A DNA stretch of 63,478 nucleotides, the filler included, from Stramenopiles sp. TOSAG23-6 (taxonomy: Eukaryota), in the NCBI GenBank assembly GCA_900128565.1. It is 8 parts of 8 records of this genome, joined end to end, with 100 filler letters (N's around TTAATTAATTAA, not from the genome) between each part and the next. Parts side by side here need not be neighbours in the genome. Positions count along the whole stretch, not along the records: positions 17,927 to 26,741 come from LT636412.1; 7 more parts are not named here. One strand, 5' to 3'. A program made the translations under genes and the position numbers. Position 1 is the stretch's first letter. Each line of letters opens with the position of its first letter. Below are positions 5,550 through 54,552 of the stretch, piece after piece. The notes under the pieces are model-generated. The model was given only the letters and a program-made list of their open reading frames with translations. It was not told the DNA's origin and made no database searches.

Positions 5550-6394
5550 TTAGCGATTAGCTTTTGCAACACGCTCGATTTCATCCTTCTTCTTAATAGA
5601 GTAAGCATTGGATGAACCTTTTGAAGCGTTGATGATTTCGTCAGCGAGGCACTCTGCAACGGTTTTTACATTGCGGAAAGTAGCCTCACGTGCGCCAGTA
5701 GCAATTAAGAAAACTGCCTGGCAAACACGACGAAATGGTGAGACATCGACAGCTTGGCGGCGAACGATACCAGCAGCACCAATACGGGTAGAATCCTCAC
5801 GTGGTCCAGCGTTGATGATAGCATCAACGAGAACTTGGATTGGATTACGGTCAGTGAGCAAGAAAATAATCTCGAACGCATGGCGAACGATGTTAACTGC
5901 GAGTTGCTTTTTACCAGCATTGCGACCGTGAAACATAAGAGCATTAGCAAGGCGCTCAACAATTGGGCACTGAGCTTTGCGGAAACGTTTCACTTGGTAG
6001 CGACCACCAGTGTGTGGGAGATAAGTTGCGAACTTTGGCTTTACAGCAATGTAGTCCTCTAGCGAGATGTCGTTAATTTCGACGTCATCGAAAGTCCTGT
6101 GTTGNGCGAAGTTGAGANAAAAGTTTAGATGATTGAGTAAATAAGTCTATATGAATATACGTTATATATNTGGGGAAATTGTATACAATGGAAATGTAAA
6201 CCAAAATACGCTGAAGAGTACTTCCGCCGCTGGTAGGTGAAACTACCAGAAAGACAGAGAGCGCATTTGGACTATTGAGCACTGCGTATCATAAGCACNC
6301 ATAATAGTCTCGTTTGCAATACGAAAAGTTATGTTTNAGTCATCAAGATTACTTACCATTTGTTGAAAAGCTTGATATCAGCTCCGTCGGCCAT
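5550..6394 (-). CDS. RPS5: 40S ribosomal protein S5 (uS7); exons 6394-6357 and 6096-5550
   Basis: [42 protein letters not shown]; canonical GTAAGT..CAG intron 6356-6097. Confidence 0.97.
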
Positions 6395-9379: not shown

Positions 9380-10950
9380 ATGATTGCAGAGATTCTAAAA
9401 AATAAAATTATAACAAGGTATACCTTTGTACTTTGTATAATTGTAGCATTTGAGTCAACAGAAGCGGCAACGCTTGCACCTGCACACTCTGCACAACATC
9501 ATGGACACCATGCAATGCTACAAAGTAAAATACTCCAACATAACCTAGGCCTTTCAGCAAAACCTCACGAATATCCAACAAACCATCGAGACAGTATTGC
9601 CGCAATCCGCTTATATACTGCCGGGGAAGATGAATCAGAACATAAGCTAGACCTTCAGAAGGGAACATCTCCAGTAGGTCTTGATTTAGGGGGAACTTTA
9701 GCAAAATTAGTTTACTTTGAATCTGCTGACACTGTAGACGCTACACATGAACTTGATCTTGAATCACCTTTGGAAAGTTTCTCTTTAGATTTTGAATCAG
9801 GACAATTACATTTCCTTTCTTTTGCATCGAATGAATATCAGGAAAATTTGAAAAGATTAAATGAAGAAGAAGGAATCTCACCAGATATTAAACTTTGTGC
9901 GACAGGTGGTGGAGCTACTAAATTAAAACAAGACTTGGTGAGCATACAAGAAGAAGATGAAATTCAGATGCTAAGAGTTGGAATGAATTTTGTGCTTTCG
10001 CATTTCAAAGCTGAATTATTTTTTTATAATGCACAAGACACACGCGTACCATGTATGTTTTTTTTTTTTTTTTTTCAATTTCGAATTTCGAAGTACCACT
10101 TGAAGAAGAAATAAAATATCCGTATTTACTGGTGAATATTGGATCTGGTGTCAGCATTATAAATGTTACTGGACCAGGTGAAGATAATTTTACGCGATGT
10201 GGTGGTACAGCAATTGTATGTTATCCACTACTATTTCAAATATTTAATATAGTTTTTTTTCCTATGAAAATTTGTACCTAACAAAAAATAATTTTGAAAA
10301 TAGATTTTTTTATACTAATTGGCGGAGGAACTTTTTTTGGTCTTTCGAAATTTCTGACAAATATCAGAACTTTTGATGAAGCTTTAGATCTTGCTAATGA
10401 TGGTGATAGCACAAAAGTGAATTTAACGGTCAAGGATATTTATGTATGTTTTATTTTTTTTCAAATTCCAATTTTTTTTTCATACGAAATTTTGTACCTA
10501 ACAAAAAACATTTGAAATATTTTTCCAAACTACATGGTGGTCCCTATAAAGATTTACCTGAAAATTTGACTGCGGCATATTTTGGAAAGAACAAACCAGC
10601 TCATGTGGAAAGGGCTGATCTTATTGAAGCAGCGCTTGAAATGGTATCTAGTGCTATAGGTGCAATTGCAGGTTTACAAGCCTACAAACGTCACTCAAGT
10701 GCAATTATGTAAGTTTCAAAGTTTCAAATATTTTCAAATATATTTTTTTCGTAATAGATTTTGTATCTCACAAAAAAAAATGTAAGATATTGTACAAAAA
10801 TATAGATTCACAGGAAGTTTCCTCAAAAACAACGAAACAGCAATGAAGAAACTAACACAGCTAGTGGATGGCAAAAGAGCATTATTCTTTAAAAATGATG
10901 GGTACTTTGGTGCTCTAGGCTCATTACTTGAATGTGAAAAAACTCTATAA
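9380..10950 (+). CDS. PANK: Type II pantothenate kinase (Fumble family); introns 10053-10093, 10216-10320, 10444-10535, 10709-10805
   Basis: [57 protein letters not shown]. Confidence 0.93.
10216..10320 (+). mobile_element. Introner-like intron, GT-TT
   Basis: Removal restores GGTAI-GGGTF; nearest AGs give a stop or frameshift; AATTG direct repeat. Confidence 0.85.
10444..10535 (+). mobile_element. Introner-like intron, GT-AT
   Basis: Removal restores KDIY-GG; first downstream AG is out of frame. Confidence 0.9.
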
Positions 10951-16600: not shown

Positions 16601-17715
16601 TACATTTTTGGTCCAATGGGGAAAATTTACCAAAAGTATCAAAAATATCAAAAATATCAAAAATATCAAAAAATAAAAATTTGATAATTTCGAATAAAAC
16701 ATCAAAAACATCAAAAACATCAAAAAAAAATAAGAAATTATTTGATTGGTCTGAATTACCACGGATTGCATCATTTTCTTTATATATGATTGAAAAAAAT
16801 ATAATGAATCCATCATGTACTATACAAAAAAAAAATCCAAGATATTTAATTCCTGATAATATTATATTTGACCATTTAAAACAATTGTTACAATCTTTAG
16901 GGTTAGGGTTTCATGAAAATGGTAAACATGTTGAAAATGTTGAAAATGGTGAAAATGGTGAAAATGGTAAACATGTTGAAAATGTTGAAAATGGTAAAAA
17001 TATTAAAAATGGTAAAAATATTAAAAATGATGAAAATGGTAAAAATATTAAAAACAGTAAAAACAGTAAAAATGTTGAAAAAAACAGTAAAAACAGTAAA
17101 AATATTGGGAGTATAATGCATATAGAAGTCAGAGGAAATAAAACTGTAGAAGAGACTTTATTAAGTACAGAATTTCCTAGTAAAAAAAATATTCTCAACA
17201 AAAAGTCAAATATTTCATTAGGTACAGAATTTCCTAGTAAAAAAAATATTTTTAAAGGTATTCCAAAAAAATGGGAAAGAATAGGAAAAAATGAAGTATT
17301 AGTGATACCAAATGATTCTTTTCAATGTACACCTTGGACTATTCCTACAGTGAATGAAAAATTATGGCCATTACTCGCTAGAATTTTTGAAGTACGTTTT
17401 TTTTTTTTTAAATTTTAAAATTTTTAAAATTTTTTTTTGTAGTAAATTTTGTACCTAACAAAAAAAAAAAAAAAAATTTTTAAATATTTTTCAAAAATTA
17501 AATGTTCGTCTTGTTGTACGAAAAGCTCGAATTGATACTGGACTCAAACGTCAAAGTAAATGCATTTTATTATGGCCTATTCCGAAAAATCCTTCTACAT
17601 GGCATCCAACTCCACCAATGCAAACTATTAATGAACCAGCTGCTGAAGGTATTGATACATGGGTTCATGTCTACCAGCATGGATATCATTTTACTTTTGA
17701 TATTTTAAAGGTAAT
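13625..17715 (+). CDS. Ankyrin-repeat protein running into a TYW2/TRM12-like region (3'-partial); introns 14274-14375, 14922-15067, 15415-15547, 16269-16441, 17392-about 17503, and 17716 into the spacer
   Basis: GFTPLHVA, TLLHWA and GATALHEA ankyrins; distal PKKWERIG..ARID.G.KRQS..WVHVYQHG..F.FDILKVM resembles TYW2; one frame after intron removal. Confidence 0.7.
14274..14375 (+). mobile_element. Introner-like intron, GT-AT
   Basis: Use of the CAG 3 nt downstream would create TGA; the AT end keeps the frame open. Confidence 0.85.
16913..17105 (+). repeat. Coding 9-nt tandem expansion (ENG/ENV/KNI/KNS)
   Basis: RAAAATRNT-type periodicity; similar arrays at 14700-14760, 15646-15690 and 16635-16725. 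Confidence 0.85.
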
Positions 17716-19606: not shown

Positions 19607-22600
19607 ATGTCACAAATACTAATTAATTGGCTGAATGAAGAACTTGGTTTAAGTTCGCAAGTTACATCTGTAACTGATGACTTTAGAAATGGATATCTAA
19701 TTGGTGAGGTTCTCTATCGTTTCAACCAAGTTGGCGACTTTAAGCTGAACTTTCGTAACCTACCCAGTGCAAATGCAAAAATCCGAAACTTTTGCTTACT
19801 CGAACCCGCACTTCGTCGAATGGGTATTCAATTCAACTCTAATATGGCGTACGCTATAATTTCCGGTAATAAAGGGCCTACTGAAAGTCTTTTATATGAA
19901 ATTAAAATGACGATTGATAAACTAAAATGTGGTCCACGGGTAGGACGGACTCGAGGTGACGGAAAAGTTGAGGCTCTAAGTAATATAGCTCTAAAACCTC
20001 GAAAGGCGTCATATGATGCCAAGCAAAGTTTACACTTTGAGAAGTCTATTCGAAATTTAGTAGAAGGAGAAAATGAAGTTCAAATGAAAGCTCATTTAAA
20101 TAAGTTTGGTGAATTTACAAAGAAGCAAGAAGAACTTCGATTGATTGAAAACGAAAAAGAAAAGAAGGCTAAGGAACAACAGCGTCTATATATGCAGCAG
20201 CTATCTGTTCAACGAATTGAAGCAAAAAGACGACGTAAATTAATTGAACTAGATCAAAAACGAACGCCGAAACATACACATCGTAAAAAAATACGTGAAC
20301 AAAGAAAAATAGATTTTGAAAACCGTAAAATAGAAAAAAATATCGTAGAAAAAGAGAGAAAAATTGAGGAAGGTCGTAATGAAGTCATCCAAGAAATTTC
20401 TGCATTTGAAGCTGCATTAGAACGTCGTGGTGGTCCTATAACAGGTGAGCTTGAAGCATTGGGACCTGGAATTGTCAGTAGCAGTAGTAAGGACGAGTTT
20501 GATGCTCGGTTAATTGGATTGTCTAGTACTCCATTTGAACAACGTTTAGCTGCAAATGAACATTTACAAAGAATGAAGATGGCAAAACAATCCATGAAAT
20601 TTGATCAAAGTGAAAGAGATCGCAGACGTGTCAGATTTTTATCCCACGTACTTAGTAGTCGTAGTAAACAGATGCAAATACAAAACGATAAATGGATTTC
20701 TACGTTGCTCACTCGTGACTGTAATACAGAAGTTGCTTTGAATTCAGAACTACAAATTATACGAAGGCACAAAAATGTTATTGTTCAGAATCGCGAATAT
20801 AGAGAAGGAGAATACCGAAAACAAGAAGCAGTTGATGCAATTCTTTTCAATGAACTAGAAAAAACACTTCTTGAAAGTTACCAGACTGGTTTTTCTGCAA
20901 ATAATAGCAGACATGGGAAACGACTCATGGATAGTTTACATCGTTGTGAGAAAGCTCAATTCCAAGATCGATTTTTGTTTTGTTCTACAATACTTCAAAA
21001 ATGTATAAATTTTGCGATAGAAATTGTAAATCAAAGACAACTCCGCAATAGTTTACAAGACAAACTTCCGTGTGTGAATGATGGCGATGCAAATATGAAT
21101 CTCCCAAGAAACATGTATGTTTTATTTTTTTTCAAATTCGAATGTTTTTTCGTACGAAATTTTGTACCTAACGATTTTTTTTTTAATATTTTTCCAAAAT
21201 ACATAATTAGAGATGCCAGAACTATATTTGGTTCAAAATTAAATATGAGCTCCTTAACAGACTGTGTTGCCAAGCAAGATGATGCAGCGGATTCCCCTAT
21301 AAATGTGGGAGTTGTGTCGGTTCATAATTTAACTCCGGGTATGGAAATTATCGCAGAACGCCAGACAGAAGATTTTCTTTCGCAAACACTCCAGCATCAG
21401 AGTAAGGATAAGCAAAGCGTACCAAGTGGTACTGAATGTGCTACACTTGGGCAGATTGTAGATACTATTCAAATTAGAACCACGCCAGTTCCAGAGAAAA
21501 AACGACCAGTGGATATACCCAATTTTCCACTACAAATATGCGTTGTTGGTGATTCACATTCAGGAAAATCAGAGCTTGCAATTCATTTGGGAAATACTTT
21601 TGGACTTGTTGTATTAAACGTCGAAGATCTAGCTGTTGATGCGATTTCAATAGATGGAGATAGCTGTGGCATGGATATAAAATCCACCTTGGAGACAGGT
21701 GGTGCATTAAGTGATGAGACGGTAGTAAGTCTAATTGTGGAAAAAGTCAAATCTGTGGCTGATGATCCAATGATGAATGGTTCTCCCGATGCGGATGGAT
21801 GTAAAGGCTGGGTTCTTGATGGTTTTCCAAGAACAGCTGTACAATGTCTTCTACTTGAGAAAGCAATGTCAGGATTTGCTCTTGATGCAGCAGAGCAAGA
21901 AAAGAAAAGGCGCCAACCCTCAAAAGTAGCCCCTCGTCCATCTACATCTATAAAAGAATATCCCCCTGAATCAGTCTTCAATGTTGTAATACAGTTGAAT
22001 GCACCCCAAGAAGTTCTTCAAAGAAGGGCAAACGGAAACTTCGTGCAAAAATCCAATGGAAATGTATATCATATTATGGATTCACCGCCTAAACTCCAAG
22101 ATGGGGTTTTACGCGAACTTCAACTTTTACCGGATGAAAGTTTTGCAAGAGTTTCACTTCCAGACTTCTTAGCAAAAGAGAATTTGGAATCTCCAGATTT
22201 GAAACAATTGCAGTATATGTTTAATAATTATATAGAGATCGATGCATCTCAAATGGACAAATCAGTGATATTGAGTGAAGCAACAAAATCCGTAAAAAGT
22301 TTTATTGATAAAGATAACGAGGAAAAACAATCTGCAAAAGATATTGAAGCAAAGAAATTATCTGATATAACGAACTTTGGAGATATTGTGGGTAACTATT
22401 TATCTTCTGGTGAAACATTTGAATCGCCAGTTGCTCCCATTGAAGCTGACGATAATACTGAAGAACGTCAAGAACAAGAACCAAGGGAAAATGTCGAAGG
22501 TGTATCAGGTCTTAAATGGTGTATCAATGAATCTGGTTCTGCAACTGATCCTGATGGAAATGTAGTACAATTGACCCGTTTGGATTTCGAAACCTTGGAA

Positions 22601-26643: not shown

Positions 26644-26892
26644 GTATGTTTTATTTTTTTTCAAATTCGTTTTTTTTTCATACGAAATTTTGTACCTAAC
26701 AAATTTTAGTTTTTTTTTTTTTGAAATATTTTTCCAAAATANNNNNNNNNNNNNNNNNNNNNNNNNNNNNNNNNNNNNNNNNNNNTTAATTAATTAANNN
26801 NNNNNNNNNNNNNNNNNNNNNNNNNNNNNNNNNNNNNNNNNGTACCTAACAAATTTTAGTTTTTTTTTTTGAAATATTTTTCCAAAATACAT

Positions 26893-28560
26893 ACAGTTTC
26901 TGAAATTTGGTCCGAACTCGAAACAAAATATCCTGGTCTTTGTCGAAATGATAATCATTCCCATGACATGTTACCTACAAGACGCTATGGGCTAGCAGAT
27001 AAACAAGCAGTATTTACACGTCAGATTCTACGGAACAGGTATGTTTTTTTTTTTTAATTATTTGAAGTTTTTTTTTCGTACGAAATTTCGTACCTAACAA
27101 AAACAAAAAAATATTTTTTTCACAATACAGACAATCTAAGAAATTGTATAGTGCTCTTAATACAATTTTACCTCCTTGGGATGGTTTCACGTATGATTGT
27201 CAGGATATATTAGATAATCCCAAAACTAGTCAAGTAACTGCGAATAGTGTTGTATGTTTTCAAAATTGATTTTTTTACCTATTTTTTTTTGGATCAATTT
27301 TTTTCATAGAAAAAAAATATTTTTTTTTTTCATTGAAAATTTCATACCTAACGATTTTTTTTTCTTGCTCAAAAAAAATATATTTTTCACAATACATGTA
27401 GTTTCACAAGATCGATGGTGCCTTTACCCTCCATCTTTAGGTAATCCTCAACGGCAGACAAATAATCCTGGCGCACATTTAGACATTTGTCCGTGGCAAT
27501 ATTTGTCTATTAATGGGCCAAATCAAACACGAAATGTACGTTTTCATCTTGAATTCATTTTTTTTTTAGTACGAAATTTCGTACCTAACAAAAAACAATT
27601 TTGAAATATTTTTACACAATACATTATTCTGAAGAAACAAATATTGATAATTTAAGGTATAAAAATGGTCTATATGATTTTAGAGCAGAGATCAACTGTG
27701 TGAAAGGAAAATTTGGTCCACATAACCAAGGTATTCTCAACCTCATTGATGCATGTTTTCATCATTCTATTTTTTACTAAAAATTCTTTGTATTACATTT
27801 TGTAATTTTTTGACAAAAAAAAAAGTTTTTTTCAAAAATCATTTTTTAAATTTTTTTTCGTACCAAATTTTGTACCTAATTATTTTTTTTACTCAAAAAA
27901 AAAATATCTTTCACAATACATAATCGTGCTGAAGATGGAGGGACAGCTGTCGTTCCAGGATTTCATAAATGCTATCCCAAATGGAGCCAGTCTCTTGGTA
28001 CTTATAAGGAAAATCGAGTCGGTCAACGTCGCCGAGGGAATTCTTACGTTTTTTCTAATCCCTATGTATATTTTCATTATGAATTTTTTACCTAAAGTTT
28101 TTTTTTCATACGAAATTTTGTACCTAACGAATTTCAAATTTCTGAAATGTTTTTTCACAAAATATGATCCTATTCATAAATTAATGAGAAGGGTTACGTT
28201 ACGAGCTGGATCACTTTTGTTATGGAATCAATGTACTGTTCATGGAGCACAACCTAATACATCTGATAGGCCACGTGTAGCACAATTTGTTCGTGGTTTT
28301 CGATTTGTACGTTTTCAAAATTGAATGTATCTTTTTTTTTAGTGCGAAATTTTGTACCTGACAAAAAAATTAAATTGAAAATATTTTTTCACAATACTTG
28401 GTGAACTTTCTGACGAAAGAAGAAAAGCAAGAGCTAAAAAAATATTACAAGAAATTAAACAAGCAAATTTACTAAAAGAATTAACACCTCTATCCAAACA
28501 CGTTTTTGGTATTGATGAAGATTATACATCGTACCAAAACCTTAACCCTAANCCNACTGT
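26893..28560 (+). CDS. PhyH-like Fe(II)/2-oxoglutarate dioxygenase (5'-partial, end approximate); introns 27039-27130, 27252-27397, 27536-27624, 27751-27921, 28066-28165, 28307-28399
   Basis: HLD, QGILNLID|NRAEDGGTAVVPGFH, RAGSLLLWNQ..VHG..PN.S.RPR. Confidence 0.85.
27751..27921 (+). mobile_element. Introner-like intron, GC-AT
   Basis: GCATGTTTT..GTACCAAATTTTGTACCTAAT..CAATACAT; removal gives LNLID-NRAEDGG. Confidence 0.85.
28307..28399 (+). mobile_element. Introner-like intron, GT-TT
   Basis: Ends CAATACTT; upstream exon ends TT; frame restored. Confidence 0.75.
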
Positions 28561-32497: not shown

Positions 32498-34418
32498 TCA
32501 CTCAGTTTTTAAAAACGATACAAACTTTTCTAATACATTTGGAGGCGAAATACCAAATGCATAACCTACGGAGCACAAATTTTTCGCTAGAGCAGCTGAT
32601 AATACTTTGTGAAAAAATATTTCAAGAAGAAAAAAAATGTTACTTTTGAAATATTTTGAAAAAAAAAAAAAAAAAAAAAATGTTAGGTATGAAATTTCTT
32701 ACGAAAAAAAAACGATGAAACGTACATGGAATTCCAATCTTATTTCGTTCTCGACTCTCATTCATCTCCTTTTCTCCCGGTACTAAAATAGGACCTGGCG
32801 CTTCTTCAGCAAGTGGTAGCCCATGCAAAATATCGCACAAAGTTTGCATTCTTTCAGCATAATTTTCAGTTCCAAATTTTGCAGGATCAACACAGATAAA
32901 ATATTGTAAAAAAATATTTCAAAAACATTTTTTGATTTTTTTTTGTAAGGTACGAAATTTACTATGAAAAAAAAATGAAATGAAAGAAAGCAATTTACAA
33001 ACATTGACCTAATTCCGCTGGTTCTTTTCTGTCTTTTGTATTTGGATTCATAACCATACCCAGTTGTGTACTAAATTTAGCTGAGTGACCTGCAAATACA
33101 CCACAGAGCATTTCAACCATCATGTATCATGAAAAAATATGTCAAATTCGAAATTTGTTAAGTATAAAAAATGTATACTAAAAAAATTTGAAATTGAAAA
33201 AAATAAATGTGAAATTGGAATGGATGATAAAAATATACATTCCAAGACAATATCCTTTATAACCATTGCCATGTATTGTGAAATAAAATGTTTACAGTTT
33301 GAATTTGTTAGGTACCAAAGTTTGTAACAAAATGTAGTACCAAAAAAAAAAAAAAAACTCAGGTACAAAATTTTGTACGAAAAAAAAATACAGGTGTTTC
33401 GGCTCCACCCAATGGAAGTAAGCCTCCGCCAGCAAATACTTCTTTGCACACACGAGTAGGACGACCTTTGCTGTCGAGACCCCATTGAGAGTTTTTTGGT
33501 AGAGGTTTTCCCTCTCGCATATAAACTTCAACTTTACCTAATGGAATTACATATTGAAAAAATATATTTAAAGTATACAACAACGTTAGTTTTTGTACCA
33601 TTACCAAAATTAACAAAATTAGCAAAATTCGTTAAAAAAACAAAAATTAAAATGTATCGTGTTTATCGTGTTTATCGTACATGTATTTTGGAAAAATATT
33701 TCAAAAAAAAAATAATTTCGTACGAAAAAAAAATCGAAATTAAAAAAAATAAAACATACACAGTTGTTGCTAAATCCACAGTGACGTCGTCTCCTTTTGC
33801 ACATGGTGCGGAAAATGCAATTGGGTTTGTTCCAATTGCTCGTTTTGCAGATCGAGTGGGAAACATCGTAGGGCTTGTGTTTGTCATACTCATACCAACA
33901 AGACCTTGTTTTGCGCATAGCATTGTATAGTATCCAGCGATGCCATAATGATTTGTGCGATGTGCTACAACCCACCCAACACCAATGTCTTTCGCCATTT
34001 TGATTGCAAGATCCATGCAATACTTACCTACTACTGCACCTTGAGCATTTCCTCCGTCAACACTCGCGCAACAGGGAGTTGAATGCACCACTCTAGGAAC
34101 TCCAGCAGGGTCGACGTTTCCAGCCGACAACTCAGAACAATAAAGCTCTAGACGGTTAACACCGTGACTTGTGATACCACGTAAGTCAGCTTCGACGAGA
34201 ACTTCTGCGACTGTAGCTGCATTTTCTGCAGTTGAACCAGCAGCTTCAAGACAAGACTGTGTGTACATTAAAAGATCTTTACGTGGAATTCTAACAAATA
34301 AATCAGATTTCCGTTGTTGTAACAACACGGCCCTTTTCTTTTTGCCCATATAACATCCTACTCCAACGCAACATGCACAAAAAGCTAAAGCTGGTAAGAC
34401 TTTGCCGTCAGAAGTCAT
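32498..34418 (-). CDS. Malate/L-lactate dehydrogenase Ldh_2 family; introns 33759-33549 (two units), 33391-33271, 33238-33122, 32998-32899, 32725-32602
   Basis: ADLRGITSHG, NHYGIAGYY, GTNPIAF, DLATTV|IPLGK, GYKGY.LGM|MVE, GQCF|ICVDP, ILVPGE. Confidence 0.93.
33122..33238 (-). mobile_element. Introner-like intron, GT-AT
   Basis: Removal restores GYKGYCLGM-MVE. Confidence 0.88.
33549..33759 (-). mobile_element. Two abutting family introns: 33759-33681 (GT-AT) and 33680-33549 (GT-GT)
   Basis: Internal AAAATACAT|GTACG junction; total removal gives DLATTV-IPLGKVE. Confidence 0.8.
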
Positions 34419-36786: not shown

Positions 36787-39700
36787 ATGTCAGGGTTGAC
36801 ACTTCCACCTGTGCATGACAACCCGGCAAAAAGCGTCACAAATCCAAGTTTGAAACCTTCGCGGGAACTTGGACTTCGTTCACAAAGCGTCATTGACAAA
36901 ATACCAGAGGGATACGAAATGACAACACTTGGAACTTTAATACGTCTTCCTGGTATTAGTGTAGAAGCAAAGCATTCCGCAGCAGAAAGAATCCGTCAGG
37001 AGAAAATAAAAATGAGAGCAACGCAGAGAAAACTCCAAAGGCTAAAATCGTTTCGTCCAAATGAAACGAGGACTGGCCAAAAATTGAGACTTGAAAGTGC
37101 AAAGGTTGCACAAGACGAGTGGAAAGACTACAAAAATGCAAATAAGTGCAATACTTTAATGGCGCTAAAGGAAAGCATTAAAAACAATCCAGTCAATCCA
37201 GCAATGTATGTTTTATTTTTTTTCAAATTCGATTTTTTTTCGTACGAAACTTTGTACGTAACAATTTTTTTTTGAAAATATTTTCCAAAAATATATACAC
37301 TGGGCAATTGGAAGAAAATTATATAATAGTGGAAAGTGGCGCGAGGCATCAGCTTCATTAGAAACTGCTTTAAAACAAGGAATTCCGGAAAACGATATAG
37401 TTGAAGTATATGTTATGTTATCAGATTGTTTATATCATATGTATAAAGATGATGGTTTTCATGATAGTGCTTTGCTGTGGCGATCAAGAGAAATTGATCT
37501 AAAAGTATTACAGGATGTGAAGTATAACACCGATGAGAGGCTAATGCTACGTGTAGTAGAGTCTTGTAAAAGACTCGGAAAGCCACACCAAGCATTACAA
37601 GCAGCTGCAAGAGTACTTTCTTGTACTATTGATCAATTGGAGGATCACTTAAATCCAGGTACAGCAGAACTAAATGCAATACTTACCCCAGGGTCAAGTG
37701 ATGTTCAAAATATTATTTCGCCAAAAAAAAGTGATACAAAAGAGAAATGTAAATGTACAGTTGGTGATATAAATCCTCTAGGACATGAATTATCTTTACA
37801 AACAAGAATTTCGGCATTAATGACAATTGCGGAAATTCATCAAAGTTTAGAAAACTATGGAGAAAGTGTATCAGCTTTGAAGCAGATCGATGCATTAGTG
37901 AAGAAGGAATCAGAGAACAAAAACTCGAAAAATAATGAAAAAAATACAATTAGTTATAAAACAACTCGTGTTAATATCCTTCCAACACCCTACGTAAATT
38001 GGCATATCCCAGCTTTGCTAGGGCGTGCGTTACTACTGAGAGCAGGCGAGGCATCAGTTGAAGGTGAAGGGTATTGTACGTTTTCATCTTTAATTTTGAT
38101 TTTTTTTTTTTTTGTAAAAACAAATTTGTACCTAACGAATGTTGCATTATTAATATTTTTCACAATACTTGCGTTGGTGCTGAAGCAAAGCGAGTTTCGC
38201 GTGATCGAAAAGCAGCAAAGAAAATGTTTCTCACAGCAAGAAGAAATCAAGTACTCAGTGAACAACAACTCTTGGAAAGTAGATTATCGTCGTGTGAAGG
38301 TGGAAGATACGTACTTGAAAAGAAGTTAAGAAAAGGAAAAAACGGTAAATCTATTTTATCGAAAGCTGCAAAAAATCAAATCGAATTAGAAATATTAAAA
38401 AGTGTGCGAATTCGTGACCAGTTAGAAGAGAAACTATCCATTTGTGAAGATTTCCTTGCTCTTGATGAATCTAGTCCTGCAAAACAACGACAGTTATCCG
38501 AAGAATGGAGTGAACAATATGACACGTGGCTTGTTCTAGCAAAAGCACATAATGAAGCTGGACGGTTTTTCTTTGCTAATGACGCCTTTAGCGTTGCGAT
38601 GCGTTTAGGTGGTCATGATTCGTTTGGATTTGAGGAGTGGAGCATGAGTGCAAGGAATTTATATGCTTCGGGGAAAAAATATATTTCTTTAGCATTAACG
38701 GCTGCAAAAAATGCATTACATTTATCTCCTGAGGACTGGAACATGAAATGTGATTATCAACGTTGGCAAGGTTTACCTCAACCTGTCAAACCTACACGAA
38801 GTATTCTTCTAACAGAAGACGTCGCTGGGCTAAGTAAAGCAAGTTTAATAACAGAATGTCGTGCAAGAGGTCTTCCCGTAATTGGCGAAGAAAGTGTATT
38901 GAAACGACAACTATTGAATCGTGTGGGTAATGAAGATGTTGATGAGATGCGCAGATGGCAACAAAAGAAGTTTAAGCGCGAAGCTAGGGAGAAAATGGAG
39001 CGTATATCAGCGACGCGGATACAAACCCTTGCGCGAGGGAAACAAGCAAGAACTCTGGCAAAGACAAAGAGAGTTGTTAAATCTAGTCGGTGTCGTCGAT
39101 TGGTAGCCGCAAAATTACAGGTATATTGGCGAGGGGCAGTCGGACGATTGCGCTTTGCTGTTGCATGGGAGGCACGGAAAAGAAAAATAGAAGCACGCCT
39201 TGTAAAAGCAGCATCAGAGGCCGATTTATTAAAGTTGGATCGTATTTTAATTGATGCCGAAAAAGGCGAGGGTAATGGCGTTGGTATATACATTGAAGCC
39301 TGTGTTTTTGCACATGCAAGACAATGTTTGGTGAATTTATTAAAATTACCCGATGACGTCAGTAACATGACGCGAGGTCGGCGTTTAAGAACAAAAAAAG
39401 AGCTCAAACGCTTAGGGAAATTATCGATGAAAGAAGGAGTAACCGTATTGGAACATTATGATCCAAAACATTCAAGCGGTCTTAGTTGGCATGAAAAGAG
39501 AGGCATCATGCTTCCTAATGAAGAAGATACGATTGAAGTTGTAAATAGCGCTCCGCTGGTCCCACAAAATAATATTGGCCATTATCAAGAAAATTCATAT
39601 CAAAATGAGTGGCAAGAACAACAACAACAACAACAACCAAATAGTGATTGGGGTACACAACAACAATCAAATAGTGATTGGGGCACACAACAACAACCAA

Positions 39701-43000: not shown

Positions 43001-44496
43001 GTATCATATATTTCTGTATCTTCAGGCCAACAATCAATTAAGCTTCCCTTCCGATTGGTTATATAAGAGCTTCCACTACGCTTTGGAAAACTATTTGCAG
43101 TTGATGATAGTGTTGATGCAGTTACAGCATCGGATCTATTTATGTTTGATACTTTACTAAAATTCACTACAGCAGAATCTGTGCAATAAGAGGCGGTACT
43201 TGGTAATTTTGAAATTAAATTTTTTTTTTTGGAACTAGAATTTGTACCTAACAAATTTCGAATTTGCTGAGTGACACCCCGTTTAGTGGAATTCGTATCA
43301 TCACTTTCAAATAAGACGCCATCTGAGACTGACCATGTTATCTTTTGCGTTGGATTATCAATGTCTCCAAATAAAAAATACTCGCACTTTTCTAGGCTAT
43401 CTGAATGTAATAATTTTTGCTTCTCATTCGTACCAAATTTCGTACCTAACGAATCACAATGGGTAAATTGTGCGGAATGCATGTCCCACAAAATTGATGC
43501 TGCATACATCAAAGAGTCTAGGGTTAGTGTTCGTGGTAGATTATCATTATAAAAATTACACTTATTATTTTCTATATTATTTGTTGTGTATCAAGAAAAA
43601 ATATTTTTGTTTTGTAAAAAAATCGTTAGGTACAAAATTTTCTATGAAAAAAAAACAATTATAAAAAAATAATGATGAACACCTACATTTTCCCCATGTA
43701 AAATCCAACACGTAATAAAAGAGAATACACCGAATCCTGTGAATCAATTTTATACGTATGATGCGACACATTTTTATCTTTGCTTTCCTCTTTTTCATTT
43801 GAACTCAATGAAGATAAAATCTGGGATTTCGTGTATTTTTCACCAACATTTTGTTCAATATTTTTCGTGACTTTCTTTACAGTTGTTTTTTTGCTTCGTT
43901 TAATTTTTCGCTTTGATATTTTAGATATTTTATTCATTCGTACCATTTTTGGTACTACTCCACCCATATATGCAATCTTCAAGTTGTATTTAGATGTAGT
44001 TATTAATCTCAATAATTGCAAACATTGTGACATTTGAAGAATATTATTTTGACATTTTTTAAGGTATTTAGGATTTTTAGGATTTTTAGGGTTAGGGTTA
44101 GGGTTTACAGTTGTACGAGTTTTTTTGTTTATTTGTTTCGGTTCTAATTGTTCTTGAATATCACTTATATACTCAAGCAAAATTTTAATACCACCTTTTG
44201 CAAAAAATGGATCACAGTCATCCAAAAAGTGAGAAAAAATGTAATGCAAAAACTGAAAAGCAATAGAGCCCATACATGTCATATTTTCCACATTTTTTGA
44301 AAATTTTGTTGGTGATATTGGAGATATTAATTTAATAAGAATGTGCAAACCTTCAATTTTAATGAGCCGATTGATGTTTGTGCTGCTAGTACTGCTTGGG
44401 TTCTTCATCTTCATTTTCTTTAATTTCGTGGGAATTCCGCAATAAATGACTAAAAGTTCAAGAGTTAAGTTAACTAACTTGTCATACTTACGATTG
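40086..44496 (-). CDS. Cytosolic carboxypeptidase (AGBL/CCP, M14), 5'-partial; introns 43686-43586, 42592-42504, 42379-42279, 42137-42039, 41752-41596, 41382-41263, 41096-41012, 40689-40562, 40433-40336
   Basis: FESANL, QWYYF, FNI|VNLEKPDS.Y..GMKP, FAH|CQPYTYS, RVHPGETPAS|W, PMLNVDGV..G..RCSLSGLDPNRQ, DMHAHS, TIESTF. Confidence 0.92.
41263..41382 (-). mobile_element. Introner-like intron, GT-AT
   Basis: Removal restores HPGETPAS-WMMDG. Confidence 0.9.
42039..42137 (-). mobile_element. Introner-like intron, GT-AT
   Basis: Removal restores YKFNI-VNLEKP; next AG is out of frame. Confidence 0.9.
43586..43686 (-). mobile_element. Introner-like intron, GT-AC
   Basis: Ends GATACAC at the family-aligned position; frame restored; first downstream AG is out of frame. 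Confidence 0.7.
44086..44105 (+). repeat. Interstitial (TTAGGG)n tract inside a coding exon (one of about 12 such sites)
   Basis: TTAGGGTTAGGGTTAGGGTT, read as NPNPNP on the coding strand. Confidence 0.8.
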
Positions 44497-44741: not shown

Positions 44742-46836
44742 CGGTTTACGATCATTTCAATTTGATTCAATTGTCAATGAAAAAGGTAGTCAAAAGCTTG
44801 TATTCGAAAACACAAACTCGATGGTCACTGACTTTCTGAATGGATATAATGCCACGATAATCATGTATGGACAAACTGGCTCCGGAAAAACACATACAAT
44901 GTTTGGTCCTCCTGTAGGCTCACTTGGCACCCATGTACATTTTATTTTTTTTTTTTACAAAAAAATCGATTTTTTTTTTGTACGAAATTTCGTACCTAAC
45001 AAAAAAAATAAAAAAAATATTTTTTCACAATTAATATACAAAGGAAGACACAACGTGGTCTTGTACCACGAATTTGTGAGGAAGTTTTATCTTGTATTAG
45101 AATACGTAGAGAACGAGGCATTACGTGTACATTTTTATCATGCATTTTAAATTTATTTATTTTCGTACGAAAATTTGTACCTAATGATTTTATTCTTAAA
45201 TATTTTTTTACAGTACGTGTGAGCTCAGTGTTTCATATATTGAAATCTACGGCCGTTCTGTAACTGATTTGTTATCAGGAGGAAGTCAAGTGGGCCATTC
45301 CAGAGTATCTGCTCAAAGATTTGTGTTAGCTGGACATGCAAAACGTATTGTTCAATCCATGTACGTTTTATTTTTTTTTTTTACAAAAAAATTGAATTTA
45401 TTTTTTTGTACGAAATTTCGTACCTAACAAAAAAAATAAAAAAATATATTTTTTCACAATCCATGTCAGATATTGATTCAATATTGACTGATGGAGATTT
45501 ACAAAAGAGAAGGGCAGCAACAGCAATGAATAAACGTTCATCAAGAGCACATTCCTTATTTATTCTAACCTTAGCAATGGAGGCACCGCAATCTTCTTCT
45601 AATGAAAATTCTAATTCTAATGATACAAAAGGCAATGTTTGTATACAAAGTCAATTATTTCTTGCAGATCTTGGAGGAAGTGAACAAGTTAAGAAAAGTA
45701 AAGTAAAAGCTGGCAGTTTGAGAGAAGGTATAGGATTTGTCCTTGGTCAACACATGAGAGAGGCTATATACATTAATACTGGATTACTTGCCCTTAAACA
45801 TTGTATTTCAGCATTAAATAGAGGTGATTCGTTTATTCCATATCAAAATGATAAATTAACCATGCTACTTTCACCAGCTCTAGGAGGTAATTCAAAAGCT
45901 TGTGTGATTGTATGTGCTAGTATGGACGATTCCAATGCTAGTGAGACATTGCAGGCCTTGCGCTTTGGGGAAAAATGTATGCGGGTAAAAAATGATGCTT
46001 TTCAGAAAAAGTCGACAGTGAGCCATCTTGTCAAAAAGATAGATCAAGAAATGCTTCAACTAGAAGAAACTATTCGTAAAAAAGAAAGATGGGAAACAAA
46101 AGAAGAAAGAAAGATAGATTCATTGGCAGAAGAAGGTACCCATGCTGCGGTTTTAAATAAACAAGGTGGAGAAATTATTCGCGTTGGATGTTTGTTTTAT
46201 TTTTTTTCAAATTTTGAATTTATTTTTCGTACGAAATGTTGTACCTAACGAATTTTTTTTGAAATATTTTTCCAAAAAACATGTCTAGTTGGAGCTGAAA
46301 CCGAAAGAGCTAGACTTGAAGTATTAATTGCAAAAAGAGCTGATCTCATGGGAGAACAAATTGATATGTCATTACCCGAATCTGGTTTTGGTGGTAAATA
46401 TGGAGGTAAAATTGATGCATTAGGAGGACACAGTGCTACAAGATTTGCAGCTAGCTCTACAGATCAAGGGTTGTTTATTGATGGTAAAAACGCAGGTCAA
46501 TGTATGTTTTTTTTTTTTCAATTTTGAGTTGTTTTTTTCGTACGAAATGTTGTATGTAACGCTTTTTTTTTTGAAATATTGTTTTGAAACACATGGACTG
46601 GCTCTCACAGTGTTGAGGATGACATTGGAATGAAACATATACGAATACTCCCAGAATCTGGACACTTTGAGGTTTGTGTTCCACGAGGAAATTCGTATTT
46701 TATTAGGGAATGTGGAAAGGATATATCACTTGCAAAGACAGTCCGTGATCAAGTGTGGCAGTGGAATATGAATGGTAGATCGAAAGCATTTATTAGAAAA
46801 GCAATTCAGAGAATACAAACTATACCTACATCATGA
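44742..46836 (+). CDS. Kinesin motor protein (5'-partial); introns 44935-45035, 45127-45218, 45361-45464, 46190-46282, 46502-46594
   Basis: YGQTGSGKTHTM, SYIEIY, MNKRSSRAH, LADLGGSE, IPYQNDKLT.LL..ALGGN, ETLQALRFG. Confidence 0.92.
45361..45464 (+). mobile_element. Introner-like intron, GT-AT, with a 10-nt direct repeat
   Basis: CAATCCAT|GT at both junctions. Confidence 0.88.
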
Positions 46837-53793: not shown

Positions 53794-54552
53794 TTAACAA
53801 CATGTATCTGTACCACCACCTTCATATGCGTGTGAAACACCTTTGATATCTTGTCCTCTAGTTGAATTAGCAGCCATTAAGGTTGGATTTTCAATAACCT
53901 TTTGAACAACTTCTTTGAAAACTTGCTGAATCCCAACTTTTGTTTTGGCGCTTGCTTCAATAAATAACATTCCACGAGATCGTGCCCAAGCTGCACCCTC
54001 TTTCCAACTCACTTCTCTTTCATCGTCCATGTCAATTTTGTTTCCTACGAGAAGCTTCACAACATCCTTTCCTCCAGAAGGGCAGTAGACTTCAGTTTCT
54101 TCCAACCAAGGGCCTAGATTTTCAAAAGTTTCTCGTCGAGTAATATCATAGCATAATATAATGCCTTGAGCACCTCTATAATATGAAGACGTCAATGTTC
54201 TAAATCGTTCTTGTCCAGCAGTATCCCATATAGTCATTTTTGCCGTTTTCCCAGCTATTTGCATAATCTTCACTTTGAAATCAACACCAATAGTTGACTG
54301 CATGGTTGAATCAAATGTGTCGTCAGTGAAACGCTGTAGAAAGAAAGTAAGAAAAAAGATACACACTATGAGAAAACTATTTCGGTATTAAGCATATGCA
54401 ACAAAGCATAGAAAAACTATCCATAGAATATAATACAATAAAAATATATGTAAGCTGTTTGAAAAATTCTTACTTACCAGAAGAATTGAACTTTTTCCTA
54501 CTCCCGCATCGCCTATTAATAAGAGTTTAAGAAGATGATCATAGTCACTCAT
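53794..54552 (-). CDS. RAB18: Rab18 GTPase; canonical intron 54477-54334
   Basis: GDAGVGKSSILL|RFTDD.FD, TIGVDFKVK, WDTAGQERFRTLTSSYYRGAQG, terminal CC. Confidence 0.93.

What the first reader, a model, noticed from the sequence alone, without database searches (positions are those of the whole stretch)
21113..21204. Introns have MITE/introner architecture with inverted termini
Seen: copies read (A)T|GTATGTTTT...AAAATACA(T), so the two ends are reverse-complementary. An inner TTTCAA...TTGAAA pair and a central palindrome add to this. 40 of 47 copies are preceded by exonic T, unlike the usual AG|GT context. Known: introners of Micromonas and Aureococcus are non-autonomous DNA transposons that supply splice sites from their termini or target-site duplication. 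Inference: the element is roughly (T)GTA...TAC(A), and the variable last 1-2 nt come from the target site, which would explain why AG is absent. End pairing in the RNA could also bring the splice sites together. No transposase is present in this window.
Basis: partly seen in the sequence, partly recalled or inferred. Interest (0 to 1): 0.82.

Follow-up and report, generated by a model that had tools for sequence, protein, structure and literature searches.

The report
Repeated introns that end in AT
The genes of this marine protist are peppered with near-identical introns of about 90-100 bases that start normally with GT but mostly end in AT instead of AG and repeat the last exon letters at their own end, as expected of a mobile element that copies itself in as an intron.

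Summary
I delimited 42 complete copies, plus 12 cut by assembly gaps, of one intron family: 5' GTAYGT (often GTATGTTTT), an extended branch block ending in TACCTAAC, a T-run, and a 3' motif ...ACAATAC plus 2 nt. Cutting 2 nt after TAC keeps the reading frame in 41 of 42 copies. Kinesin, LDH2-type dehydrogenase and pantothenate kinase homologues confirm the junctions. Only 4 of 42 copies end in AG and 29 end in AT. The next AG downstream is in frame in 12 of 38, which is chance.

The last exon nucleotides are repeated at the intron's end. At least 2 nt match in 26 of 42 copies (16.2 expected, permutation p = 2e-5), including AG/AG, TT/TT and GT/GT pairs.

The inverted termini are weak: 3-4 nt (6 with the flanking AT), no covariation, and no fold better than shuffles. 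I found no transposase.

Conventional GTAAGT...YAG introns coexist in the Rab and RPS5 genes. Antisense fragments of the element lie inside long ORFs, and contigs break inside copies.

Best reading: an introner-like family with a non-AG 3' splice site, in a probable MAST-3 stramenopile. No RNA reads or empty-site alleles could be examined.

The parts
21113..21114 (+). Last two exon nucleotides (AT) before the focal intron. They are repeated as the intron's last two nucleotides.
21115..21204 (+). Focal intron, 90 nt by the family rule (GT...AT). A 96-nt GT...AG reading ending at 21210 is also in frame.
21115..21123 (+). 5' splice site GTATGTTTT
21148..21159 (+). Perfect 12-nt palindrome (TTTCGT/ACGAAA) in the conserved block upstream of the branch site
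21165..21172 (+). Branch-site motif TACCTAAC, 33 nt before the 3' end
21195..21204 (+). 3' motif CAAAATAC followed by the terminal AT
10216..10320 (+). Family intron in the pantothenate kinase gene. Homology sets its length at 105 nt, with a 4-nt direct repeat AATT. An AG 22 nt after the branch A is skipped.
10444..10535 (+). Family intron, AT/AT, young subfamily
27039..27130 (+). Family intron with an AG/AG boundary repeat (canonical GT-AG)
28307..28399 (+). Family intron with a TT/TT boundary repeat
38076..38170 (+). Family intron with a TT/TT boundary repeat
32899..32998 (-). Family intron in the LDH2-type gene, TT/TT. The 5' site was set by homology (LGQCF|ICVDP).
33122..33238 (-). Family intron in the LDH2-type gene. 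The junction GYKGYCLG-M-MVEMLCG has the same length as in five homologues.
33549..33759 (-). Composite 211-nt intron, GT/GT. A young copy that lacks the branch block abuts an older intron-like part.
44935..45035 (+). Kinesin intron 1; 93% identical to kinesin intron 3
45127..45218 (+). Kinesin intron 2, GT/GT, with a 5-nt boundary repeat
45361..45464 (+). Kinesin intron 3, with an 8-nt boundary repeat
46190..46282 (+). Kinesin intron 4
46502..46594 (+). Kinesin intron 5
6097..6356 (-). Conventional intron GTAAGT...CACAG in the ribosomal protein S5 (uS7) gene. Not a family member.
54334..54477 (-). Conventional intron GTAAGT...CTACAG in a Rab GTPase gene. Not a family member.
43208..43490 (+). 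Two partial family copies (43208-43260 and 43419-43490), antisense to and inside the 349-aa ORF 42541-43590 on the minus strand
17154..17255 (-). Two tandem partial family cores, antisense to and inside the plus-strand ORF 16363-17418
26644..26741 (+). Family copy cut off by a contig end. It is one of 11 of 14 linker-adjacent contig ends that lie inside a copy.

Best explanation
These are spliceosomal introns of one introner-like repeat family in a probable MAST-3 marine stramenopile.

Each unit carries its own strong 5' splice site (GTAYGT, often GTATGTTTT). It also carries a roughly 25-nt conserved block ending in the branch site TACCTAAC, a T-rich stretch, and a 3' motif ...ACAATAC.

Inferred origin: the unit entered genes as DNA and duplicated about 2 nt of the target, most often AT within (C)AT|G. 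The left copy of that duplication stays as the end of the exon. The right copy becomes the last two nucleotides of the intron.

Inferred splicing: the cut runs from |GT to the end of the right copy, which restores the original reading frame. The 3' splice site is therefore YAT (or TT, GT, AG) rather than YAG. It lies 31-47 nt after the branch A, and AGs lying in between are passed over.

Shown here: the family, the boundaries to within the repeat, the rarity of AG at the 3' end, the boundary repeat, and coexistence with ordinary GT-AG introns.

Inferred only: insertion as DNA, the duplication mechanism, and which spliceosome does the cutting.
For: Family:
- 42 complete copies and 12 copies truncated at contig ends, in unrelated genes on both strands.
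- Pairwise identity has a median of 0.63 against 0.54 for shuffles (shuffle maximum 0.63) and reaches 0.93. The focal copy has 10 partners at 0.75 or above.
- 11 of 14 linker-adjacent contig ends lie inside a copy, so the assembler broke on them.

Boundaries:
- The catalogued 3' end gives the longest junction-spanning ORF, against shifts of +1 and +2, in 41 of 42 copies, with 1 tie.
- Splicing the five kinesin introns gives one 536-aa ORF. It aligns without a gap at 4 of 5 junctions to seven orthologues; the fifth junction falls in a variable loop.
- The LDH2-type junctions fit the homologue sequences. The window's exon ends were read: GYKGYCLG-M-MVEMLCG against GYKGYGLAMMVE, and LGQCF-ICVDP against LGQCFVCLDP.
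- The pantothenate kinase junction allows exactly one residue between GTA and GGG, as in PANK2 and yeast CAB1.

Non-AG 3' ends:
- Terminal dinucleotides are AT 29, AG 4, TT 4, GT 2, and TA, AA and AC 1 each.
- The next downstream AG is in frame in 12 of 38 copies, which is chance.
- 7 of 40 copies skip an AG lying between the branch site and the 3' end.

Boundary repeat:
- The exon end matches the intron end over at least 2 nt in 26 copies (16.2 expected, p = 2e-5), at least 3 nt in 13 (6.1 expected, p = 4e-4) and at least 4 nt in 5 (1.4 expected, p = 0.004).
- Six matching pairs are not AT (p = 1.8e-4).
- Without the two copies whose ends I set from homology, 24 of 40 match (p = 4e-4) and 4 non-AT pairs remain (p = 0.0045).
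- In the pantothenate kinase intron the cut follows the 4-nt repeat AATT rather than the TAC+2 rule.

The motifs are not a general need of this cell's spliceosome: the Rab and RPS5 genes have GTAAGT...YAG introns without any family motif.

Entry as DNA in either orientation: five partial antisense hits at three sites lie inside three long ORFs.

Intron phases are 18:10:14, not different from even (p = 0.32).
Against: - No RNA evidence. Read laying could not be used, so every junction rests on reading frame and protein homology. Where the exon end and the intron end are identical, the cut could sit 1-2 nt to the left (AT...AC or TG...CA).
- 16 of 42 copies have no 2-nt boundary match. The matches vary from 2 to 8 nt, unlike a fixed duplication.
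- The young copy inside the composite intron 33759-33549 has GT before it and AT at its own end.
- Intron 32725: the family rule puts its end at 32602, but homology (FHKVL against LHKNL in P0008) favours 32614. That end is ...ATATTTT|, with no TAC motif and no repeat.
- The LDH2-type junction at intron 33391 leaves one residue more than in the homologues.
- The terminal inverted repeat is only 3-6 nt and does not co-vary.
- No transposase was found in the window.
- No empty-site allele or orthologous gene structure could be examined. The metagenome scan returned only loci of 37-47% identity.
- A 19-mer from the family found nothing related in the two other collections.
Confidence: 0.6

Rival explanations
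1. The same family is cut by a transformed minor (U12-like) spliceosome rather than the major one. The long, rigid 5' site and branch site mark a second intron class, and the minor system is known to tolerate non-AG ends. This rivals only the splicing step, not the mobile origin.
For: - Two sharply different intron classes occur in one window: GTAAGT...YAG and GTATGTTTT...TACCTAAC...AT.
- The 5' motif is conserved over 9 nt. It matches the Physarum minor-type variant GTATCTTT at every position but +5.
- In Physarum, GT-AT makes up 17% of non-canonical minor introns. Minor introns there also show inverted ends and a TA direct repeat, read by the authors as a transposon origin (passages of bioRxiv 10.1101/2020.10.12.336362).
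Against: - The 5' site lacks the ATCC core. GTATGT with TAC(C)TAAC is the classic yeast-type major consensus (recalled).
- The branch A lies 31-47 nt from the 3' end, further than the 9-12 nt reported in Physarum.
- A T-rich tract is present.
- No snRNA gene reached threshold in the window. No genome is held, so U11, U12, U4atac and U6atac could not be sought.
Confidence: 0.15
2. The introns are old and immobile. Their likeness reflects unusually long splice signals demanded by this lineage's spliceosome (convergence by selection), and the boundary repeat reflects a preferred exon context.
For: - The most conserved blocks are the 5' site, the branch region and the 3' motif.
- Many copies are only 60-70% alike.
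- A diverged member in the pantothenate kinase gene (10710-10780) has GTAAGT and probably ends in AG, so the classes grade into each other.
- No empty site was seen.
Against: - Conventional introns without these motifs are present in the same window, so the motifs are not obligatory.
- Identity of 0.85-0.93 extends through the non-signal spacer.
- Contigs break inside copies.
- A fixed context preference cannot explain the copy-by-copy matching of rare pairs such as AG/AG, TT/TT and GT/GT.
- Antisense fragments lie inside ORFs.
Confidence: 0.1
3. The family spreads as RNA. An excised intron reverse-splices into another transcript, is copied to DNA and recombines in. The terminal AT belongs to the unit, and exon ends in AT merely reflect where reverse splicing works.
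For: - The intron's end is AT in 29 of 42 copies whatever the exon end. Eight copies pair an exon end of TT, AA, AC or CT with an intron end of AT.
- The young copy in the composite intron sits exactly at an exon-intron border, with GT before it and AT at its end.
- Nearly all full-length copies are in the sense orientation.
Against: - Reverse splicing gives no reason for the non-AT pairs to match (6 observed, p = 1.8e-4).
- It gives no reason for repeats of 4-8 nt.
- It cannot place antisense copies inside ORFs.
Confidence: 0.1
4. The true cuts lie 2 nt to the left, so these are AT...AC introns (|ATGTATG...ATAC|).
For: - With AT on both sides the spliced product is identical, so 22 of 42 copies cannot tell the two readings apart.
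- TAC occupies -5 to -3 in 27 of 42 copies.
- AT-AC is a known compatible pair (recalled).
Against: - The intron's first two nucleotides would then vary (AT 22, TT 10, eight other pairs) while positions +3 and +4 would be nearly invariant GT. That is unlike any known intron class.
- The four copies ending in AG are plain GT-AG under the unshifted reading.
Confidence: 0.04
5. The units are removed from DNA, like ciliate internal eliminated sequences bounded by TA, and not from RNA.
For: TA...TA bounds can be drawn inside the termini (G-TA-TG...AA-TA-CAT), and that reading also keeps the frame.
Against: - The TA...TA reading would leave 6 extra nt (2 residues). The gap-free LDH2-type junction, kinesin junctions and pantothenate kinase junction exclude it.
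- The units carry a 5' splice site, a branch site and a T-tract.
Confidence: 0.01

Closest known systems
Introner elements of Micromonas pusilla and Aureococcus (transposon-derived introns)
   Same: - Many near-identical short introns in unrelated genes.
- The element brings the 5' splice site, and the 3' site comes from a duplicated target.
- A short boundary repeat and no coding capacity.
Source: passages of the review PMC11282704, (3-nt duplication, inverted termini, 3' AG co-opted from the duplication).
   Different: - Here the duplicated target is mostly AT, so the 3' splice site is not AG.
- The repeat is about 2 nt and of variable extent.
- The inverted termini are only 3-6 nt.
- The element also carries a long conserved branch-site block.
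Non-canonical introns of the tunicate Fritillaria borealis
   Same: - Most introns escape the AG rule.
- A YAY triplet stands before the 5' site and forms the last three intron bases (passages of PMC13326754). Here YAY ends 28 of 42 introns and 15 of 42 upstream exons, against a 7% background.
- A transposon origin with boundary repeats has been proposed, and rare conventional GT-AG introns coexist (review PMC11282704).
   Different: - Fritillaria introns mostly start with AG, not GT, and have no rigid branch motif.
- The host here is a stramenopile protist, so any likeness is convergent.
- Whether U2AF is duplicated here is unknown.
Non-canonical introns and introners of Amoebophrya (Syndiniales)
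   Same: Repeated introns with 3-5 nt direct repeats across the exon/intron borders, inverted ends, no transposase inside, and coexistence with canonical introns (passages of PMC7789003).
   Different: - Amoebophrya has no fixed terminal dinucleotides at either end, and has inverted repeats of 8-20 nt that form hairpins.
- Here GT (or GC in 2 copies) is kept at the 5' end in 42 of 42 copies, and the end pairing is weak.
Expanded minor (U12-type) introns of Physarum polycephalum
   Same: - A long conserved 5' site.
- Non-canonical ends including GT-AT.
- Inverted ends with a 2-nt direct repeat, read by the authors as the footprint of a DNA transposon (passages of bioRxiv 10.1101/2020.10.12.336362).
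   Different: - The 5' site here is GTATGT, not GTATCY.
- The branch motif lies 31-47 nt from the 3' end, not 9-12 nt.
- No minor snRNAs could be examined.
Euglenid nonconventional introns
   Same: Non-canonical borders and repeats at the junctions that look like target-site duplications (review PMC11282704).
   Different: Euglenid introns lack GT, a branch motif and a pyrimidine tract, and depend on stable end pairing. Here all three signals are present and end pairing is not supported.

Membership tests
Introner elements (transposon-derived intron families) | Many introns in unrelated genes that are alike over their whole length | tested here: met
   42 complete and 12 truncated copies. Identity reaches 0.93 against a shuffle maximum of 0.63.
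Introner elements (transposon-derived intron families) | Target-site duplication at the intron borders | tested here: met
   Statistically met: at least 2 nt match in 26 of 42 copies (16.2 expected, p = 2e-5); 6 non-AT pairs match (p = 1.8e-4). 16 copies have no match, and the match length varies from 2 to 8 nt.
Introner elements (transposon-derived intron families) | Terminal inverted repeats | tested here: inconclusive
   GTAT/ATAC in 10 of 42 copies; a complementary run of 4 nt in 12 and of 3 nt in 11. No covariation (p = 0.32).
Introner elements (transposon-derived intron families) | Recent gain: empty sites in relatives, or positions specific to the lineage | not testable with these tools
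The metagenome scan gave only distant loci. No genome is held.
Introner elements (transposon-derived intron families) | Insertions in either orientation, or outside introns | tested here: met
   Five partial antisense hits at three sites inside three long ORFs. They are partial, and the E-values range from 9e-7 to 3e-3.
MITE (miniature inverted-repeat transposable element) | Clear terminal inverted repeats of about 10 nt or more and a duplication of fixed length | tested here: not met
   The termini pair over 3-6 nt only. The focal copy pairs 8 of 9 nt only when the flanking AT is counted. The boundary repeat varies in length.
MITE (miniature inverted-repeat transposable element) | An autonomous partner with the same ends that encodes a transposase | not testable with these tools
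   None among 20 long ORFs of the window. The rest of the genome is not available.
U12-type (minor) introns | 5' site RTATCCTT | tested here: not met
   The first six nucleotides are GTATGT in 14 copies and GTACGT in 14, with other variants in the remaining 14. No copy has ATCC.
U12-type (minor) introns | Branch motif TTCCTTRAC close to the 3' end | tested here: not met
   TACCTAAC is exact in 31 of 42 copies and lies 31-47 nt from the end.
U12-type (minor) introns | Minor snRNAs in the genome | not testable with these tools
   The Rfam scan of the window found nothing. No genome is held.
Fritillaria-type non-canonical introns | YAY triplet before the 5' site and as the last three intron bases | tested here: met
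   Intron end 28 of 42, exon end 15 of 42, both 13 of 42; background 7%.
Fritillaria-type non-canonical introns | Non-GT 5' dinucleotide (mostly AG) | tested here: not met
   GT in 40 copies and GC in 2, of 42.
Ciliate-type TA-bounded eliminated sequences | Excision between two TAs that leaves one TA | tested here: not met
   It would leave two extra residues. The protein alignments show none.

The most novel reading that the evidence does not exclude
In this uncultured stramenopile lineage a mobile element has created a second, numerically dominant class of introns. Their 3' splice site is set not by AG but by the element's end plus a copy of the last exon nucleotides (YAT, TT or GT). The spliceosome must therefore have evolved a relaxed or different way to choose 3' sites. 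This could be convergent with Fritillaria through altered U2AF, or it could use a transformed minor spliceosome. The published gene sets of such genomes, built on the GT-AG rule, would then be badly truncated.
Probability: 0.45. Interest if true: 0.85.

Novelty: new variant of a known kind. Interest (0 to 1): 0.7.

Why it matters
- It would add an independent, protist case to the very few genomes where most introns escape the AG rule. This case keeps a textbook 5' site and branch site, so it isolates the question of how a 3' splice site is chosen without AG.
- It would give a clean example of an intron-making element whose target duplication, rather than its own sequence, becomes the acceptor.
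- There is a practical consequence. The only database protein identical to this window (P0001) is a gene model that runs straight through the first such intron into nonsense. Gene catalogues and completeness estimates for these uncultured marine grazers are therefore probably understated.
- Prior description. Papers on single-cell genomes of this group do not discuss splice sites in the passages I saw. In the main text of the one introner survey I opened (PMC12130899), 'MAST' and 'stramenopil' do not occur. For the second survey (bioRxiv 10.1101/2022.06.06.494994) I saw only the search listing, which counts 0 occurrences of 'stramenopile'. The species lists of both surveys are in supplements that I could not open, so a prior listing cannot be excluded.

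Tried and rejected
RNA and population evidence:
- The look-up of sequencing runs listed coded DNA holders and three metatranscriptome runs with small shares of words. None was laid, so they count for nothing here, neither for habitat nor for expression.

Homologues for the focal junction:
- The search for homologous proteins found nothing.
- The search of protein representatives matched only the adenylate-kinase part downstream of the intron.
- BLASTP against P0241 gave no alignment across the junction.

Related loci:
- A 19-nt family motif gave one chance hit in a Bacteroidales bin among prokaryote genomes and none in viral contigs.

Closed or empty tools:
- No whole genome is held.

Readings considered and rejected:
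- A hidden AG just downstream as the general rule: in frame in 12 of 38 copies, which is chance.
- TA...TA bounds: they would add two residues, which the alignments exclude.
- Structural pairing of the ends: no covariation and no excess stability.
- Covariation of 5' position 4 with its partner: C-G in 3 of 17 copies with C against 0 of 22 with T, Fisher p = 0.074.

Other checks without result:
- PDB search for the third pantothenate kinase junction gave no alignment of the upstream exon, so the end of intron 10709 is unsettled.
- The Rfam scan of the window found no snRNA.

I redid the analysis from coordinates.
Full report
WHAT THE WINDOW IS

The 63,478 bases are not one stretch of genome. 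Seven linkers (44 N, a 12-base all-frame stop sequence, 44 N) lie about 8.9 kb apart, at 8876, 17827, 26742, 35657, 44553, 53434 and 62279. The pieces between them shrink steadily in size. The window is therefore eight unrelated contigs joined end to end.

G+C is about 35% and long ORFs are open under the standard code.

The only database protein identical to a window ORF is P0001, a gene model whose source name carries a MAST-3 label. A kinesin of the window is 54% identical to a transcript-derived protein of Incisomonas (P0129). I take the organism to be a MAST-3-type marine stramenopile. No whole genome is held for it.

THE OBSERVATION

GTATGTTTT occurs 19 times in the window against 1.64 expected, and AAAATACA 27 times against 10.5 expected. 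No shuffle reached either count.

A scan for the branch-like motif TACCTAAC with at most one mismatch gave 85 hits. Most sit in the same context.

From these hits I built a catalogue of 42 complete copies on both strands:
- 30 copies came from an automatic rule: best match to the 5' 9-mer upstream of the branch motif, and best match to the 3' 8-mer downstream of it.
- 12 copies were set from printed coordinates.

A profile built from the 29 catalogue copies of at most 112 nt recovers all 42. It also finds 12 copies cut off by contig ends and several diverged or partial ones.

The common plan is as follows:
- An exon ending mostly in (C)AT.
- A 5' site GTAYGT. GTATGT and GTACGT occur 14 times each, and GC replaces GT in 2 copies.
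- A T-run.
- In the young subfamily, an AAATTCGAATTT-like palindrome.
- A conserved block TTTCGTACGAAATTTTG followed by TACCTAAC, which is exact in 31 of 42 copies.
- A T-rich stretch.
- The 3' motif ...CA(C/A)AATAC followed by two nucleotides.

Copy lengths run from 85 to 211 nt, with most between 89 and 112.

ARE THEY INTRONS, AND WHERE ARE THE CUTS?

Frame test. For every copy I spliced from the G of the 5' site to the catalogued 3' end and measured the stop-free stretch spanning the junction. I then repeated this with the 3' end moved by +1 and +2. The catalogued end wins in 41 of 42 copies. The one tie lies beside an N. A few margins are thin: 16269, 53183 and 32725.

Kinesin gene. Removing five copies gives a single 536-residue ORF. 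Aligned with seven orthologues, it shows no gap at four junctions. The fifth junction falls in a variable loop.

LDH2-type dehydrogenase gene on the minus strand:
- The junction at intron 33238 reads GYKGYCLG-M-MVEMLCG, the same length as GYKGYGLAMMVE in five homologues.
- At intron 32998, homology (LGQCF-ICVDP against LGQCFVCLDP) moved my first choice of 5' site by 5 nt, to a GTAAAT site.
- At intron 33759, homology (DLATTV-IPLGKVE) shows that the intron runs on for 211 nt, to ...CAATATGT.

Pantothenate kinase gene. PDB alignments leave exactly one residue between GTA and GGG, as in PANK2 (S209-L210-GGG) and yeast CAB1. The intron at 10216 is therefore 105 nt long, not 102.

These alignments also exclude a TA...TA reading, which would add two residues at every junction.

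THE 3' END

The last two nucleotides are AT in 29 copies, AG in 4, TT in 4, GT in 2, and TA, AA and AC in 1 each.

Could an AG just downstream be the real acceptor? For the 38 copies that do not end in AG, the next AG is in frame in 12, which is the chance rate.

Seven of 40 copies pass over an AG lying between the branch A and the 3' end. One example is the pantothenate kinase intron, whose skipped AG sits 22 nt after the branch A.

The branch A lies 31-47 nt from the 3' end (median 38), with one outlier at 81.

Position by position, the intron ends in T(36) A(38) C(33) A(35) T(35) of 42 copies.

For the focal copy alone the next AG is 6 nt away and in frame. Its end at 21204 therefore rests on the family pattern, because nothing homologous spans that junction.

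THE BOUNDARY REPEAT

The two nucleotides before GT are AT in 22 copies, TT in 10 and other pairs in 10. They equal the intron's last two nucleotides in 26 of 42 copies (p = 4e-5 when partners are permuted).

Six of the matching pairs are not AT: AG/AG once, TT/TT three times and GT/GT twice (p = 1.8e-4). Two of these six had ends that I had fixed from protein homology. Without them, 24 of 40 copies match (p = 4e-4) and 4 non-AT pairs remain (p = 0.0045).

Counting how far the exon end and the intron end agree, reading backwards from the cut:

| Match length | Observed | Expected | p |
|---|---|---|---|
| at least 2 nt | 26 | 16.2 | 2e-5 |
| at least 3 nt | 13 | 6.1 | 4e-4 |
| at least 4 nt | 5 | 1.4 | 0.004 |

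One copy matches over 8 nt (45361). There the intron's own motif departs from the family consensus in exactly the direction of the exon.

The pantothenate kinase case is telling. The cut does not follow the TAC+2 rule. It does follow a 4-nt repeat, AATT, of the exon end. In the statistics this copy was counted by the rule, as a mismatch, so the tests are conservative.

This is the footprint expected if a unit running from GTA to TAC entered the DNA with a short duplication of the target, and if splicing removes the unit together with one copy of that duplication.

It is not clean:
- 16 copies have no match.
- Eight copies pair an exon end of TT, AA, AC or CT with an intron end of AT. This would fit later drift of the intron end toward a preferred AT, or an AT that belongs to the unit itself.
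- The match length is not fixed.

Exon position -3 is C in 15 of 42 copies, and the first nucleotide of the next exon is G in 21 of 42. This suggests a preferred site (C)AT|G.

THE INVERTED TERMINI AND RNA PAIRING

In the focal copy the arms 21113-21121 and 21196-21204 pair at 8 of 9 positions, and the minimum-energy fold closes the ends with 6 base pairs. The fold is nevertheless no more stable than shuffles: -6.3 kcal/mol, z = +0.42, and 122 of 200 shuffles fold at least as well.

Across the 42 copies:
- The run of complementary bases starting at G+1 and at the C of TAC is 4 nt in 12 copies, 3 nt in 11 and shorter in 18.
- A copy's own ends pair no better than the ends of different copies (mean 2.38 against 2.34, p = 0.32).
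- A count over ten positions gives 4.81 against 4.63 (p = 0.0135). Subfamily structure could explain that.
- When the 5' site has C at +4, its partner is G in 3 of 17 copies, against 0 of 22 when it has T (Fisher p = 0.074).
- Mean z over all copies against mononucleotide shuffles is -0.95.

I conclude that GTA...TAC is a real feature of the consensus, but it is too short to count as an inverted repeat of MITE grade. End pairing is not supported as a mechanism.

SIGNS OF MOBILITY

- Likeness over the whole unit. Pairwise identity has a median of 0.63, against 0.54 for shuffles (shuffle maximum 0.63). A core of copies stands at 0.80-0.93. The focal copy has 10 partners at 0.75 or above. Two kinesin introns are 93% alike.
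- Assembly breaks. 11 of 14 contig ends next to linkers, and the start of the window, lie inside a copy.
- A second intron class. The ribosomal protein S5 gene (6097-6356, minus) and a Rab gene (54334-54477, minus) have GTAAGT...YAG introns with none of the family motifs. Their junctions read KLFNKW-TFDDV and GKSSILL-RFTDDTF; that these fit the conserved proteins is recalled, not tested. The family motifs are therefore not something every intron of this cell needs.
- Antisense fragments. The profile finds five partial antisense hits at three sites (17154-17192 and 17205-17255 in tandem, 18219-18256, 43208-43260 and 43419-43490; E from 9e-7 to 3e-3). They lie inside three long ORFs of the opposite strand, where they are read as peptides such as LGTEFPSKKNI. 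That is what is expected of DNA insertions in the orientation that cannot be spliced out.
- Intron phases are 18:10:14, not different from even (p = 0.32).
- A diverged member in the pantothenate kinase gene (10710-10780, E = 5e-5) has GTAAGT and probably an AG end. The two intron classes therefore touch.

WHAT IS MISSING

- No transposase domain appears in 20 long ORFs.
- No snRNA gene reached threshold in the window.
- I could lay no reads, so there is no direct RNA junction and no empty-site allele.
- The one metagenome scan brought only distant loci that look bacterial.
- A 19-mer from the family found one chance match in prokaryote genomes and none in viral contigs.
- Intron positions in orthologues could not be compared, because only proteins of the relatives were available.

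COMPARISON WITH WHAT IS KNOWN

- Micromonas. According to a review of which I read passages (PMC11282704), its introners are short DNA transposons with 3-nt duplications and inverted termini. The element gives the 5' site and the AG is co-opted from the duplication. The present family works the same way in outline, except that the duplicated target is mostly AT.
- Fritillaria borealis. [quoted passage not shown] They are handled by the major spliceosome with diverged U2AF paralogues (passages of PMC13326754). Here YAY ends 28 of 42 introns and 15 of 42 upstream exons, against a 7% background, but the 5' end stays GT.
- Amoebophrya. It has repeated non-canonical introns with 3-5 nt direct repeats and 8-20 nt inverted repeats (passages of PMC7789003).
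- Physarum. Its expanded minor introns include GT-AT ends and show inverted ends with a TA repeat (passages of bioRxiv 10.1101/2020.10.12.336362). This keeps open the possibility that a transformed minor spliceosome cuts this family.

PRIOR DESCRIPTION

- Papers on single-cell genomes of MAST lineages do not discuss splice sites in the passages I saw (PMC5778133; PMC8163842).
- In the main text of one introner survey (PMC12130899), 'MAST' and 'stramenopil' do not occur.
- A search for Incisomonas with intron and one for GT-AT, non-canonical introns and introner brought no description, judging from the listings only.
- The gene model P0001 reads through the first family intron into out-of-frame text. 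This shows that at least this model was built without recognising these introns.

VERDICT

The finding is real and interesting. This is an introner-like intron family with a non-AG acceptor and a boundary repeat, in a stramenopile where it has apparently not been described.

The MITE-like inverted ends and the RNA end pairing are not.

The main weakness is the lack of RNA reads and of empty sites.

Noticed in passing
window 8876-8975, 17827-17926, 26742-26841, 35657-35756, 44553-44652, 53434-53533, 62279-62378: The window is a chain of eight contigs of about 8.9 kb, in descending size, joined by N44 / all-frame stop linker / N44. Neighbouring pieces are not neighbours in the genome.
   Followed up: yes
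window 6097-6356 (-) and 54334-54477 (-): Conventional GTAAGT...YAG introns in the ribosomal protein S5 and Rab genes, with none of the family motifs. Two intron classes coexist.
   Followed up: partly
window 17154-17255 (-), 18219-18256 (+), 43208-43260 (+), 43419-43490 (+): Partial family copies lie antisense inside long ORFs and are read through as peptide (LGT.F..KKN-like). They look like exonised insertions in the unspliceable orientation.
   Followed up: partly
window 33549-33759 (-): Composite 211-nt intron. A young copy that lacks the branch block and ends in ...ATACAT is followed directly by GTACGA... and an older intron-like part with its own CTAAC and ...CAATATGT end. It could be a nested or twin intron.
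   Followed up: partly
window 10053-10096 (+): A very short derivative in the pantothenate kinase gene: the 5' site, a T-run, a palindrome, then ...CGAAGTACCA. The frame allows a 41-nt GT...AG intron or a 44-nt one. There is no branch motif. Unresolved.
   Followed up: partly
window 32602-32725 (-): The family rule and protein homology disagree by 12 nt on the 3' end of this intron (32602 against 32614). The site may be an alternative acceptor, or a stretch of exon that resembles the 3' motif.
   Followed up: partly
window 41690-41745 (-): A 13-nt unit (CAAATGTATTGTT) repeated about four times in tandem, just after the 5' site of intron 41752.
   Followed up: no
window 9227-9260, 13459-13485, 15882-15905 and elsewhere: Short telomere-like CCCTAA runs lie inside or beside ORFs. 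Many predicted proteins carry NPNPNP stretches and KNTKN-like low-complexity stretches.
   Followed up: no
P0001 (gene model identical to window 33762-34420, minus strand): After DLATTV this database gene model continues with out-of-frame and intron-derived text, so it missed the family introns.
   Followed up: yes
window 30561-30610 (+): A possible 50-nt conventional intron, GTAAGT...CCAAAATAG. Its 3' end resembles the family's CCAAAATAC motif but ends in AG.
   Followed up: no
L081:6187-6205: A single exact match of the 19-nt family motif in a Bacteroidales metagenome bin. I took it as chance.
   Followed up: no
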